Assembly: GCF_037042905.1 (NCBI RefSeq)
Contig: NC_087247.1
Location: forward strand, 11,408,001-11,472,000
DNA length: 64,000 bases
Origin: Lytechinus pictus
Taxonomy: Eukaryota
Reading direction: 5' to 3'
A program made the position numbers. This document shows, piece after piece, positions 36,001 through 39,000 of this stretch (position 1 is its first letter; each line of letters opens with the position of its first letter).

Positions 36001-39000
36001 ATTTTGAATTTTCAGAAAGAATTGATCAGTGAAAAGTGATATAATGGTCAGGACATTTTCGTAAGATGAGAATTTTGGAATGATAATTCAATGTCCGGTG
36101 TGTTGGTTCAGTTGGTAGAGCGTCTGTCATACAACCAGGAGCTTGGGAGGTCAAACCCCAGCCGCGTCAGACCAAAAGACGTTAAAAGATGGGAGTTACT
36201 GCTACCCTGTTTAGCATTCAACGATTAAAGGGATAGATCCTTGTCGATCTGGTGCTCCACAGCAGCTGTCGGGCCCACGATCAATTGGGCAAAACACATT
36301 TTTATTTCATGTCTATTTCGAAAAATAAAAAATGGATTTTTATGTCATTTATATTACTGAACCCTTAAGCTTTAGACAGGTATTAATGTTATCTCACTCA
36401 TGTCGTTATACTGTTGCAAGATGTGACATTGATAAGTTGTGATCTTTGATATGATTTTCAGGAATGTCCCGAACAAGTTGAGAAGTCAGTTTGTCGATGA
36501 GAGTACCCAGAGGAAGGAGAGGCTCGCCAGCTTGAAGGAAACCATCCGTACCAGTGGCTGTGAAGTCTTTGACGGGTAAGAACACTTGTAGGAATTGATT
36601 TGATGGACAGGAGTATTCCAAACAATTTGAAAAATTAGTTTGTTTTCTGTCAATGTAGCCATGATTTCTTTCTATTTTCTGTTCAGTAACACTTGCCATA
36701 ATGGATTGATATCTCTCTATTTTCAGTCTAGTTATCCATACTATAATGGTGTTTATTTCTTAACTCTCTTCTGTCCAGATTAACCCATGCCATAAATGTT
36801 TTGATATCTTACTCTTTTCTGTCCAGTTACCCATGCCATTTTGGCGGAGTGGTAGGCGGTAAGCCCGTTGTCGTGAACCTGGAGGAGTTTGGCCGCCGTG
36901 TCATCAACAATATCTGGAACTACATCAAGCATGCATATCCAGAAGATGTAAGCTTATTATTTGCATATTTCTGAGCTACTATATTTCCATTTATATGTTG
37001 ATATTGCCATATGCATATGCATGAATAATGACTATTCATAAATTTAGATTCACATTTATGTGGTCCATTTATTGAAATGCACAATTGATTATTTTTATGC
37101 AATGTTATGCATGATAATTGTTTTTTCTTTAATTTAGACAGTGTATGCCTGAATTTTTTTAGCTGAGTAAGATGTAAGCATATTGATATTTGTGACAGTG
37201 ATGTAGATTGTTACCACAGAGAGATCTTTGCCCTGAAATGAAATCAATCCTGACATTCACTGAATAAGTTCATGGCAAATGAAAAAAAAAATGTGTATAA
37301 CATTCCAAACTTATTGAAGTCTGAATTATGTAATATTTCAGTTGCTTGATTCTTGAACTCAGACAAAATTCTCATCGCTGGTAGTTTCGTTCTCATTTTT
37401 CCATTTCAATTGTAGGATTGGTTTAATAAACGTTCTTGTCCCAGGGCATTGGTTTGAAACTAGAAACAATTACCATTTCAAGAAATGATAATTTATACAA
37501 GTTCCATGTTTTGTTGATATTTTTTTTTAAGGGTGAGATCCTTGATGAAGTAGTCCACGAAAGAGCACAGCATGACATGTTCCTCCAGTCACAGCTAGCA
37601 ACCTTTACCGGTAGAAAGAACCAGGTCAAGCAGTGTTTGGATATCATCAAGAAACCTGAGACAGGGTTGCTGATGGTTGCAGGCAAGCAGGGGTGCGGCA
37701 AGACGGCTTTACTGGTAAGATATGATAGAAATAATTGGAGGGGTGAGGGGGGGGGGGGTTTAGATAGCTAGGGACCTTCACTGGTAGGAAGAACCAGGTC
37801 AATCAGTGTTTGGATATCATCAAGACACCTGAGACAGGGATGCTATTGGTTACAGGCAAGCAGGGGTGCGGCAAGACGGCTTTACTGGTAAGATATGATA
37901 AAAAAAGATAGGAGGGGTGAGGGGGGGGGGGTTGAGATAGCAAGCGACCGTCACCGGTAGAAAGAACCAGGTCAAGCAGTGTTTCGATGTCATCAAGAAA
38001 CCTGAGACAGGGTTGCTGATGGTTGCAGGCAAGCAGGGGTGCGGCAAGACGGCTTTACTGGTAAGATATGATAAGAGAGATGGGGGGGGGGGGTGAAGGG
38101 GGCAGGGTGGTTGAGATAGCTAGCGACCTTCACTGGTAGGAAGAACCAGTTCAATCAGTGCTTGGATGTTGTCAAAAAGCACAGACAGGGATGCTATTGG
38201 TTACAGGCAAGCAGGGGTGCTCCAAGACGGCTTTACTGGTAAGATGTGATAAGAGAGATGGGAGGGGTGAGGAGAGAGGGGGCAGTGAGATAGCTAGCGA
38301 CCTTTACTGGTAGGAAGAATCAGTTCAAACAGTATTTGGATGTTGTCAAGAGACCTTAGACAGGGACGCTGATGGTTACAGGCAAGCAGGGGTGCAGCAA
38401 GACGGCTTAACTGGTAAGATGTGATAAGGGAGATGGGAGGGGTGAAGGAGGGAGGGGGCAGTTAGATAGCTAGCGACCTTTACTGGTAGGTAGAACCAGT
38501 TCAAACAGTGCTTGGATGTTGTCAAGAAACCTGAGACAGGGATGCTATTGGTTACAGGCAAGCAGGGGTGCGGCAAGACAGCATTAGTTGTAAGATATGG
38601 TTAAAGGGTCAGAGTGATGCTAGCAAAGTGAAACTTGGAATTCATTCCCTACATGTATAACCTCAATTTCGTTTGATAACAGATTTAGGCACAATCTGAA
38701 GCTGTATTTGATCAAACGTAACTCTCGTTGAATTATAAATGATTTTTGTCTTCTTTCTACTCTCAGTCCCCCCCTCTGCATTTCATTCTCTCCTACCCTT
38801 TTCATGTATGTTTGTTTGATCTGGGGTTTGTCTTGGTGCAAGATGCAATTCATTTATTTGAAGAAAACTAATTTAGTTGTAATTCCCAGATAGTTGTGAA
38901 TGATACAAGTGACAGATAAGGTGATAAATCAAACCTATACTCTTAGATATTGGTGTACATGTAGCTGTTGGCTATCCGTTGTTGAACAAGAGTTGAAATT

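What the first reader, a model, noticed from the sequence alone, without database searches (positions are those of the whole stretch)
37595..38600. Six-copy array of the TEP1 NACHT Walker-A half-exon, each copy framed by AG...GT and separated by G-run spacers
Seen: the last 120 nt of exon 19 (LATFTGRKNQ..GKQGCGKTALL) plus its gtaaga donor recur five more times. Each extra copy is preceded by 'gatag', so each is a formal AG..GT cassette in phase 0. Copies 2 (37768-37887) and 3 (37941-38060) are open and keep the P-loop. Copy 4 has a 1-nt deletion, and copies 5 and 6 have stops. Diagnostic bases alternate (exon and copy 3 are type A; copies 2, 4 and 6 are type B; copy 5 is a hybrid), suggesting dimer-level duplication or conversion. 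The ~50-nt spacers are G-runs with no pyrimidine tract. Inference: this is a snapshot of exon birth or a gene-conversion reservoir for the NTPase motif. Alternatively it is a bank of decoy donors that produce premature stops, since read-through hits a stop at ~37770.
Basis: partly seen in the sequence, partly recalled or inferred. Interest (0 to 1): 0.65.

Follow-up and report, generated by a model that had tools for sequence, protein, structure and literature searches.

The report
Exon-boundary minisatellite in TEP1-like gene
The end of one coding exon and the start of its intron have been copied head to tail six times, leaving five decaying look-alike exon ends with spare splice signals inside the intron; this is a known kind of repeat that is usually harmless.

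Summary
The array is real. Six units of 173-179 nt lie at 37593-38626. Each holds the last 120 nt of the Walker-A exon (37532-37714), the donor GTAAGAT and a 53-59 nt G-rich spacer. The gene is TEP1-like: TROVE, DUF4062, P-loop and WD40 exons.

Best reading: an intronic minisatellite whose first unit straddles the exon/intron boundary. This is the kind called "mirage" in amphioxus and also described for human F7, CBS, LMNB2 and PDGF.
- The 8-mer GCTAGCAA occurs only twice in the window, at the two array edges. That fits birth by slippage between short direct repeats.
- The "AG" before each copy is the exon's own CAG codon, copied along.
- The pseudo-acceptors rank in the lowest 0.5-2.5% of 3613 AGs for pyrimidine content, and none of the five spacers has a branch-point motif.
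- Copies 4-6 are broken. The open frames of copies 2 and 3 are expected by chance.

An 84-nt tract identical between the exon and copy 3 suggests patchy gene conversion (P about 0.01-0.02). Dimer-level duplication is not supported. Donor usage is untested because no RNA data were available. Novelty: new member of a known kind.

The parts
37532..37714 (+). Real coding exon (183 nt, phase 0 to phase 0) of the TEP1-like gene. Its end encodes the Walker-A motif GKQGCGKT.
   Evidence: Open frame and AG/GT borders. Weak P-loop family hits, AAA_16 at 8.1e-05 and nSTAND1 at 1.3e-04, both below their curated cut-offs.
37593..38626 (+). Whole minisatellite: six units (five of 173-179 nt, the last of 150 nt) plus the 8-nt start of a seventh.
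37594..37601 (+). Left flanking direct repeat GCTAGCAA, inside the exon.
   Evidence: One of only two occurrences in the window, both strands.
38619..38626 (+). Right flanking direct repeat GCTAGCAA, just after the last unit.
   Evidence: About 0.0007 hits are expected in a 60-nt stretch.
37595..37714 (+). Copy 1, the functional exon tail (40 codons).
   Evidence: It has one unique change, which is synonymous.
37715..37767 (+). Spacer 1: the authentic donor GTAAGAT followed by G-runs of 4 and 12. It ends in GATAG.
   Evidence: G4 motif at 37740-37758.
37769..37771 (+). In-frame TAG met if the authentic donor is skipped.
   Evidence: The frame 37430-37768 ends here.
37768..37887 (+). Copy 2: open, 11 differences from copy 1. 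Its donor CTG|GTAAGATA is the same as the authentic one.
37888..37940 (+). Spacer 2.
   Evidence: G4 motif at 37914-37931.
37941..38060 (+). Copy 3: open, 6 differences from copy 1, all within the first 49 nt.
37990..38073 (+). 84-nt tract of copy 3 and spacer 3 identical to 37644-37727 (exon tail, donor and 13 nt of intron). Putative conversion tract.
38061..38119 (+). Spacer 3.
   Evidence: G4 motif at 38082-38107.
38120..38238 (+). Copy 4: 119 nt, frameshifted by a 1-nt deletion.
38239..38293 (+). Spacer 4 (no canonical G4 motif).
38294..38413 (+). Copy 5: in-frame stops at 38357-38359 and 38408-38410.
38414..38469 (+). Spacer 5.
   Evidence: G4 motif at 38428-38452.
38470..38589 (+). Copy 6: in-frame stop at 38491-38493. 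Its donor context is weakened to GTT|GTAAGATA.
38590..38618 (+). Last spacer, 29 nt and short, with a single GGG. It may be the ancestral intron start.
37715..39228 (+). The intron that hosts the array (1514 nt, of which 912 nt are array).
   Evidence: The real acceptor at 39227-28 has 85% pyrimidine upstream.
39229..39390 (+). Next coding exon (starts in phase 0; I did not fix its 3' end).

Best explanation
This is an intronic minisatellite of the 'mirage' type. Its first unit is the 3' end of a coding exon plus the first ~30-55 nt of the following intron.

**Inferred history**
1. The exon and the intron each carried the 8-mer GCTAGCAA about 150 nt apart. Slippage or unequal exchange between them duplicated the stretch in between.
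2. The spacer became G-rich.
3. The array grew to six units by unequal exchange and was patched by short gene-conversion tracts. One of these tracts joins the real exon and copy 3.

**Inferred working today**
- The spliceosome uses the first donor (37714|37715) and the acceptor at 39228.
- Everything else in the array is removed as intron.
- The five extra exon tails are unselected pseudo-exon pieces in different stages of decay.
- Their donors are silent or nearly silent pseudo-sites.
- The array has no function of its own.
- Its costs are a latent risk of mis-splicing (stop at 37769-71) and of conversion of the exon by decayed copies.
For: **Shown**
- The array and its anatomy.
- The flanking 8-mer occurs only at the two array edges. 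About 0.0007 chance hits are expected in a 60-nt stretch. This matches the Haber-Louis model as summarised in PMC3389668 (passages).
- The AG of each 'cassette' is part of the copied exon sequence.
- The pseudo-acceptors are among the poorest 0.5-2.5% of 3613 AGs for pyrimidines. None of the 5 spacers has YTNAY. The spacers are 77-84% purine.
- Decay: 3 of 5 extra copies are broken.
- Unique changes: copy 1 has 1, and it is synonymous. The five extra copies have 18 in all: 7 synonymous, 9 non-synonymous and 2 stops, plus a 1-nt deletion.
- Variable sites by codon position are 11:8:16 (P 0.25).
- The open frames of copies 2 and 3 are expected under random change with probability 0.61 and 0.76.
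- Mosaic structure and the 84-nt exon/copy-3 tract.
- The same window holds five other arrays with periods of 69-340 nt (mostly 144-210), so such arrays are common in this genome.

**From papers**
- Arrays of this anatomy in amphioxus (units of 150-160 bp and 157 bp, 3-6 units, 81-100% identity) did not disturb splicing in Adh3 and the globins (PMC3087553, section 16; PMC3902484, passage).
- In human F7, LMNB2 and PDGF only the most upstream donor is used (PMC1557585, Introduction and Discussion).
Against: - No RNA, population or orthologue data could be consulted. The central claim, that only the first donor is used, therefore rests on analogy.
- In two of the human analogues (the 6-16 gene and CBS) two downstream pseudo-sites are used constitutively.
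- The same paper notes that early experiments with duplicated donors gave opposite results in different laboratories.
- Donors 2 and 3 are identical to the authentic one (CTG|GTAAGATA). Donor 3 shares 71 nt of upstream and 13 nt of downstream context with it.
- Each of donors 1-5 is followed by many G triplets (6-14 GGG in 60 nt; median 0 over 57 GTAAG sites). In vertebrates G triplets stimulate the adjacent upstream donor (PMC5778605, introduction passages).
- G-rich motifs can compensate for weak pyrimidine tracts in short human introns (PMC2481429, abstract and passages).
- The synonymous share among unique changes of the extra copies (7 of 18) is somewhat above the neutral 23% (P 0.10).
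- The homology of the last spacer to the inner spacers is modest (16 of 20 in the best local alignment, not tested against shuffles).
- The organism is unidentified, so mammalian and amphioxus rules may not transfer.
Confidence: 0.75

Rival explanations
1. Decoy-donor module. Some transcripts use donors 2-6, keep spacer 1, meet the stop at 37769-71 and are degraded. The array would then lower or tune TEP1-like output by unproductive splicing.
For: - Six donors with the same GTAAGAT core. Donors 2 and 3 are identical to the real one from -3 to +8.
- G triplets lie after donors 1-5 and are known to favour the adjacent upstream donor.
- The stop at 37769-71.
- The 6-16 gene and CBS use two pseudo-sites.
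Against: - In the analogues with long units (LMNB2 100 bp, PDGF 81 bp) and in F7, only the first donor is used.
- Amphioxus mirages gave no aberrant mRNAs.
- Using donor 2 or 3 would make an exon of 356 or 529 nt. I recall that exons this long are recognised poorly; I did not look this up.
- Nothing suggests regulation.
Confidence: 0.12
2. Exon birth. Copies 2 and/or 3 are, or are becoming, 120-nt phase-0 cassette exons spliced through the G-rich 53-59 nt spacers. The protein would then carry a repeated P-loop segment.
For: - Formal AG...GT framing, phase 0, and two open copies.
- G-rich enhancers can rescue weak pyrimidine tracts in short human introns.
- Ebner et al. propose that mirage units may turn into real exons.
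Against: - The acceptors are in the lowest 0.5-2.5% for pyrimidines. There is no YTNAY in any of the 5 spacers, and the spacers are 77-84% purine.
- The AG is inherited from the exon.
- All 4 unique changes in copies 2 and 3 are non-synonymous, and their openness is expected by chance.
- A doubled beta1/P-loop segment would probably damage the NTPase fold (my inference).
Confidence: 0.04
3. Gene-conversion reservoir. The intronic copies are kept as donors that diversify or repair the Walker-A exon.
For: The 84-nt tract identical between the exon and copy 3, with permutation P 0.012-0.020. 27 of 78 site pairs are incompatible.
Against: - The direction of conversion is unknown.
- 3 of the 5 candidate donor copies carry stops or a frameshift, so conversion into the exon would mostly be harmful.
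- There is no sign of selection on the copies.
- Conversion is a general property of minisatellites.
Confidence: 0.03
4. Assembly artefact. One unit, or a few, were inflated by mis-assembly around the homopolymer G runs or by merging haplotypes.
For: G runs of 11-12 lie in three spacers. Homopolymers are error-prone, and no read data were available.
Against: - The units differ by 5-17% in a structured, mosaic way, with unit-specific indels.
- The array is flanked by unique sequence on both sides.
- Similar arrays are common in the window.
- Re-sequencing confirmed comparable repeats in lancelet PGBD5.
Confidence: 0.05

Closest known systems
'Mirages': minisatellite-like tandem duplications of exon/intron boundaries in amphioxus genes. 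Examples are Adh3, globins BflGb6 and BflGb9, troponin C and PGBD5. Sources: Ebner et al. 2010, PMC3087553, section 16 read; PMC3902484, one passage. The original Canestro et al. 2002 paper is not held.
   Same: - A tandem array whose unit joins an exon end to intron sequence.
- Unit size (150-160 and 157 bp there, 173-179 here).
- Copy number (3-6 there, 6 here).
- Unit identity (81-100% there, 83-95% here for the exon parts).
- AG/GT signals repeated in the units.
- BflGb9 also duplicates the 3' boundary of an exon.
- Signs of homogenisation inside the cluster.
   Different: - The host gene and the content of the unit. Here the unit carries 40 codons, including a Walker-A motif, and a G-quadruplex-prone spacer.
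- I could not establish that the window comes from amphioxus.
- Splicing and length polymorphism, shown for Adh3 and the globins, are untested here.
- The flanking 8-bp direct repeat gives an origin here, whereas the authors call the mechanism unclear.
Human minisatellites whose first monomer spans an exon-intron boundary. Examples are F7 IVS7 (37 bp), interferon-inducible 6-16, CBS IVS13, LMNB2 (100 bp) and PDGF intron 4 (81 bp). Source: Borensztajn et al. 2006, PMC1557585; abstract, Introduction and Discussion read.
   Same: The authentic donor is followed by identical pseudo-donors in the intron. This poses the same problem of choosing among identical 5' splice sites.
   Different: - In F7 only 4 bp of exon belong to the unit. 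Here it is 120-122 nt.
- The units here have diverged by up to 17%.
- Usage of the sites was measured there and not here.
Minisatellite birth between short flanking direct repeats (Haber and Louis 1998). Known to me only through its summary in PMC3389668 (passages).
   Same: A stretch flanked by a 5-10 bp direct repeat is duplicated. The array ends with the first bases of the unit (GCTAGCAA).
   Different: The model is general and says nothing about exons. Here the last unit is 23-29 nt shorter than the inner ones.
Intron gain by tandem duplication of an AGGT-containing exon segment. Sources: review PMC3443670, section 8; Hellsten et al. 2011, abstract only. Gao and Lynch 2009 is not held.
   Same: An internal tandem duplication duplicates splice signals, and the duplicate can be removed as intron without changing the mRNA.
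   Different: No new intron is needed here. An existing intron is simply lengthened by 912 nt.
Tandem exon duplication giving cassette or mutually exclusive exons (Kondrashov and Koonin 2001; Letunic et al. 2002). Recalled, not looked up.
   Same: Repeated exon-derived coding segments in tandem.
   Different: The units lack the exon's 5' part and its acceptor. The copies are decaying.

Membership tests
Exon-boundary minisatellite ('mirage'; F7-IVS7 class) | Head-to-tail array of several similar units | tested here: met
   Period 173, 5.8 copies, 86% matches. 6 copies in register.
Exon-boundary minisatellite ('mirage'; F7-IVS7 class) | The first unit contains the real exon end and the authentic splice site | tested here: met
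   Unit 1 is 37593-37765. It spans the exon end at 37714 and the donor at 37715.
Exon-boundary minisatellite ('mirage'; F7-IVS7 class) | The splice-site sequence is reiterated in the intron | tested here: met
   GTAAGAT follows 5 of 5 extra copies. The context is identical (CTG|GTAAGATA) in 2 of them, CTG|GTAAGATG in 2, and GTT|GTAAGATA in 1.
Exon-boundary minisatellite ('mirage'; F7-IVS7 class) | Regular splicing undisturbed (pseudo-sites silent or nearly so) | not testable with these tools
Exon-boundary minisatellite ('mirage'; F7-IVS7 class) | Length polymorphism between haplotypes | not testable with these tools
   There is a single sequence and no collection of eukaryotic genomes or reads to compare with.
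Tandemly duplicated functional exon (cassette or mutually exclusive) | Each copy has a competent 3' splice site (pyrimidine tract, branch point) | tested here: not met
   Pyrimidine fraction 0.10-0.20 against 0.80-0.85 at the real sites. No YTNAY in any of the 5 spacers.
Tandemly duplicated functional exon (cassette or mutually exclusive) | Copies kept open and under purifying selection | tested here: not met
   3 of 5 copies are broken. All 4 unique changes in the 2 open copies are non-synonymous, and their openness is expected by chance (0.61, 0.76).
TEP1 (TROVE, NTPase and WD40 protein of vaults and telomerase) | TROVE domain | tested here: met
   Five separate exon translations match PF05731 above its cut-off, with E from 2.8e-05 to 9.8e-25.
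TEP1 (TROVE, NTPase and WD40 protein of vaults and telomerase) | NACHT-type P-loop NTPase domain | tested here: inconclusive
   The Walker-A exon hits only AAA_16, nSTAND1 and NB-ARC, all below their cut-offs. An APAF1_C helical-domain hit lies downstream. Pfam NACHT was not hit by any single exon. The joined coding sequence was deliberately not built or searched.
TEP1 (TROVE, NTPase and WD40 protein of vaults and telomerase) | C-terminal WD40 propellers | tested here: met
   WD40 at E 5.3e-18 and 4.4e-11. The TEP1-specific propeller models are hit, but below their cut-offs.
G-quadruplex or G-run intronic splicing element | Four G-tracts of 3 or more with short loops, just downstream of a donor | tested here: met
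   4 of the 6 canonical motifs on the + strand of the whole window lie in spacers 1, 2, 3 and 5, and there are none on the - strand. Any effect on splicing is not testable here.

The most novel reading that the evidence does not exclude
The array may be more than inert. A share of transcripts would use the identical donors 2 and 3, reinforced by the G-runs behind them. These transcripts run into the stop at 37769-71 and are degraded, so copy number would set the output of the TEP1-like gene. In parallel, short conversion tracts would move sequence between the decaying copies and the Walker-A exon, feeding recurrent variation or loss-of-function alleles into the NTPase core. The locus would then be a natural experiment on 5' splice-site choice outside mammals. 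Donor 3 sits in 84 nt of context identical to the authentic site.
Probability: 0.12. Interest if true: 0.55.

Novelty: new member of a known kind. Interest (0 to 1): 0.3.

Why it matters
**For annotation.** Gene finders and protein aligners can place the Walker-A segment on copy 2 or 3, or build a model with a repeated P-loop. The right model uses 37714|39229.

**For biology.** The locus adds a clear case to the small set of exon-boundary minisatellites. It also has two features that the published cases I read do not report:
- An identifiable 8-bp flanking direct repeat that explains how the array was born.
- Statistical evidence that the functional exon itself exchanges sequence with an intronic copy.

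**As a test system.** If RNA data were at hand, this would be a clean natural test of how a spliceosome chooses among identical donors 173 nt apart. It is otherwise ordinary.

Tried and rejected
- **Solved structures.** The Walker-A exon found only chance-level P-loop hits (E 0.28 and 1.3), with no TEP1 NTPase structure to compare with.
- **ESM Atlas.** The call with a TROVE exon was answered as closed or unavailable. I did not repeat it.
- **Rfam.** A scan of 36000-40000 at E up to 1 gave no match, so no known RNA family hides in the array.
- **Dimer-level duplication.** Rejected. The spacers follow their neighbours, not alternate units, and TRF gives no double period.
- **Selection on copies 2 and 3.** Rejected.
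- **Lower variability of the last 35 nt of the exon part** (7 of 35 against 28 of 85 variable sites). Not significant, P 0.19.
- **Link between the spacers and the G-rich 28-nt repeat at 7663-7731.** The alignment scores are reached by 4 to 246 of 300 shuffles, so the likeness is only compositional.
- **Papers not held.** Gao and Lynch 2009, McCullough and Berget 1997 and Canestro et al. 2002. I know them only through papers that cite them.
- **Literature search for this array.** A search for TEP1 with minisatellite gave 2 papers. Neither looks relevant by title and abstract start, and I did not open them. I therefore found no description of this array, within that one search.
- **Homology searches.** Orthologue and homologue searches, and eukaryotic genome or read collections, were closed or absent. 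I could not polarise the two sequence types, date the array or compare copy numbers.
- **Organism.** Not identified. Nothing in my calls points to human: 37% G+C and many 144-210-nt minisatellites. From recall, the coding pieces are far from the human protein. I therefore treated the contig as non-human.
- **Masked stretch.** The N run at 48918-49057 was left as it is.
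Full report
**What is there**

The stretch 37593-38599 is one tandem array with period 173, 5.8 copies, 86% matches and score 1334. The repeat finder puts six copies in register at spacings of 173-179 nt. 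A 26-nt core of the unit occurs six times in the window with at most 3 mismatches, and never in 100 shuffles.

Each unit has two parts:
- The last 120 nt of a coding exon. The six exon-derived parts are 37595-37714, 37768-37887, 37941-38060, 38120-38238, 38294-38413 and 38470-38589.
- A spacer that begins with GTAAGAT and ends with GATAG. The five inner spacers are 53, 53, 59, 55 and 56 nt.

The first exon-derived part is the true end of the exon 37532-37714. That exon is 183 nt, runs from phase 0 to phase 0, and ends in ...GKQGCGKTALL. The next coding exon starts in phase 0 at 39229.

- Copies 2 and 3 are open and keep the Walker-A motif.
- Copy 4 has lost one base.
- Copy 5 has two in-frame stops and copy 6 has one.
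- Reading through the real donor meets TAG at 37769-37771.

**The gene**

Exon translations were searched one at a time. They gave:
- TROVE in five exons, with E down to 9.8e-25.
- DUF4062.
- A P-loop exon with sub-threshold AAA_16, nSTAND1 and NB-ARC hits.
- An APAF1_C-type helical domain.
- WD40 repeats with sub-threshold hits to the TEP1 propeller models.

This is the domain order of TEP1, so 'TEP1-like' is justified. 'NACHT' as such could not be scored, because no single exon reaches that model. I did not number the exons, so 'exon 19' is unverified.

The organism was not identified. Nothing in my calls points to human: 37% G+C and many 144-210-nt minisatellites. From recall, the coding pieces are far from the human protein. 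I treated the contig as non-human. The N run at 48918-49057 was left alone.

**How the array arose**

The unit begins inside the exon at AGCTAGCAACC. The AG that 'frames' each extra copy aligns with the exon's own CAG codon at 37593-94, so it was copied with the unit and did not evolve as an acceptor.

The 8-mer GCTAGCAA occurs only twice in the 64-kb window on either strand. One copy is at 37594-37601, the left edge of the array inside the exon. The other is at 38619-38626, directly after the last unit. Two hits overall is not unusual, since 1.42 are expected. A hit within a 60-nt stretch at the array's end has an expectation of only about 0.0007.

This is the signature of the Haber-Louis model, in which a stretch flanked by a 5-10 bp direct repeat is duplicated by slippage or unequal crossing-over. 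I know that model through its summary in PMC3389668.

The last unit is 150 nt. Its spacer (38590-38618) has one GGG, against 6-14 in the inner spacers. It aligns only modestly with the ends of the inner spacers (16 of 20 positions, not tested against shuffles). I infer that the G-rich ~25 nt were gained in an early inner spacer before further amplification. Loss from the last spacer is equally possible.

The window holds five other arrays, with reported periods of 69-340 nt (mostly 144-210). They lie at 4229-5131, 22054-22564, 25717-26870, 31278-31863 and 44313-45119. This genome therefore makes such arrays readily, and this one happens to straddle an exon boundary.

**History inside the array**

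Identity of the exon parts ranges from 83% to 95%. Copies 1 and 3 are closest (6 differences), and copies 4-6 are furthest from copy 1. Of 38 variable columns:
- 4 two-state sites, plus the three-state site 36, group copies 1 and 3 against the rest.
- 3 split copies 1-3 from copies 4-6.
- Only 2, which are adjacent (78 and 79), alternate strictly.

27 of 78 pairs of informative sites fail the four-gamete test. All six differences between copy 1 and copy 3 lie in the first 49 nt. The next 84 nt (37644-37727 = 37990-38073) are identical. This tract covers 71 nt of exon, the donor and 13 nt of intron. The matching run of 23 concordant polymorphic sites is reached in 1.2% of permutations, or 2.0% with the exon part alone.

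Copy 3 also carries three unique changes in its 5' part and none in the shared tract. I read this as a short gene-conversion tract between the functional exon and an intronic copy, with direction unknown.

The spacers do not show a two-unit period: s1-s2 is 0.89 and s4-s5 is 0.93, but s1-s3 is 0.75. TRF reports no double period. Dimer-level duplication is therefore not supported.

**Are the extra copies exons?**

The 20 nt upstream of the five pseudo-acceptors are 10-20% pyrimidine. That is the 0.5-2.5 percentile of all 3613 AGs in the window. The two real acceptors have 80% and 85%, the 98.7 and 99.7 percentiles. Taken as mini-introns, the spacers are 53-59 nt and 77-84% purine, and none of the five holds a YTNAY motif.

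Selection tests are all compatible with neutral decay of the extra copies, with constraint on copy 1 only:
- Copy 1 has one unique change, and it is synonymous.
- Copies 2 and 3 have four unique changes, all non-synonymous.
- The five extra copies together have 7 synonymous changes, 9 non-synonymous changes and 2 stops, plus a deletion. The synonymous share is not significantly above the neutral 23% (P 0.10).
- Variable sites fall 11:8:16 on the three codon positions (P 0.25).
- A copy with 6 or 11 random substitutions stays open with probability 0.76 or 0.61.

**The donors and the G-runs**

Donors 2 and 3 equal the authentic CTG|GTAAGATA. Donors 4 and 5 differ at +8. Donor 6 has lost the G at -1.

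Four of the six canonical G-quadruplex motifs on the + strand of the whole window lie in spacers 1, 2, 3 and 5. There are none on the - strand. In vertebrates, G triplets just downstream of a donor stimulate that donor and help recruit U1 (PMC5778605, introduction; PMC1919487, passages). This would strengthen the authentic donor, but equally donors 2-5.

G-rich motifs can also compensate for weak pyrimidine tracts in short human introns (PMC2481429). For that reason I keep the cassette reading at a few per cent rather than zero.

Rfam finds nothing in 36000-40000.

**What is known**

Arrays of exactly this anatomy are in print.

*Amphioxus.* They are called 'mirages'. They are tandem duplications of exon/intron boundaries in Adh3, the globin genes BflGb6 (150-160 bp units, 6 and 3 units in two haplotypes, 81-100% identity) and BflGb9 (157 bp, at the 3' boundary of exon 2), troponin C and PGBD5. 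Their AG/GT signals are repeated, their length is unstable, there is homogenisation inside clusters, and regular splicing is not disturbed (PMC3087553, section 16; PMC3902484).

*Human.* The first monomer of the F7 IVS7 minisatellite spans the exon 7 boundary, and only the most upstream of 5-9 identical donors is used. The same holds for LMNB2 (100-bp units) and PDGF (81-bp units). The 6-16 gene and CBS also use two pseudo-sites (PMC1557585, Introduction and Discussion).

By these analogies the first donor should be the one used here. The array would then be 912 nt of a 1514-nt intron. This step is inferred, not shown.

**Verdict**

Conversion is supported and the decoy donors are formally present. 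Exon birth, a reservoir function and dimer-level duplication are not supported.
- This is a new member of a known kind, in a new host gene.
- It adds two modest points: a visible flanking direct repeat that explains its origin, and evidence that the functional exon takes part in the exchange.

**What stayed unchecked**

- Transcripts, copy-number variation and orthologues were not examined.
- Supplementary files were not consulted. The unit alignments and trees of the amphioxus globin mirages are in supplements I did not see. They could sharpen the comparison but do not bear on the claims made here.

Noticed in passing
window 3359-6826, minus strand: Exon-like open frames matching the kinesin motor domain (E 3.4e-13 and 3.6e-05). 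A second gene lies head to head upstream of the TEP1-like gene.
   Followed up: partly
window 4229-5131, 22054-22564, 25717-26870, 31278-31863, 44313-45119: Five other arrays, with reported periods of 69-340 nt (mostly 144-210) and 2-6 copies. Those at 4229-5131 and 44313-45119 share the periods 163 and 192 and may be one dispersed family. I did not check their relation or orientation.
   Followed up: no
window 7663-7731: A 28-nt repeat, 2.5 copies, with G9 runs in a GA-rich context. It looks like the array's spacers, but the alignment scores are within the range of shuffles.
   Followed up: yes
window 40081-40566, plus strand: A 162-codon open frame, 49% G+C, rich in Ser, Asp, Glu and Arg. 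It lies between the NTPase exons and has no Pfam match. It could be a lineage-specific exon or a chance frame.
   Followed up: partly
window 58652-58808 and about 61800-62100: A long ATC triplet run (52.7 copies) and neighbouring low-complexity stretches. They read as poly-His, Asp or Ile in several frames inside the WD40 part of the gene.
   Followed up: no
window about 5390-5620, 42316-42429, 59285-59541, 61048-61301: A short dispersed element seen as similar translated strings (for example ...WLGFEPT...) in several introns and on both strands. It is probably a SINE-like repeat.
   Followed up: no
window 48918-49057: A run of 140 N inside the gene, between the helical-domain exon and the next coding block. 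I left it untouched.
   Followed up: no
window 8584-8595, 20528-20538, 27293-27304, 27680-27690, 29068-29078, 31939-31949, 63017-63027: Seven further homopolymer G or C runs of 11-12 nt outside the array, so such runs are a general trait of this sequence.
   Followed up: no
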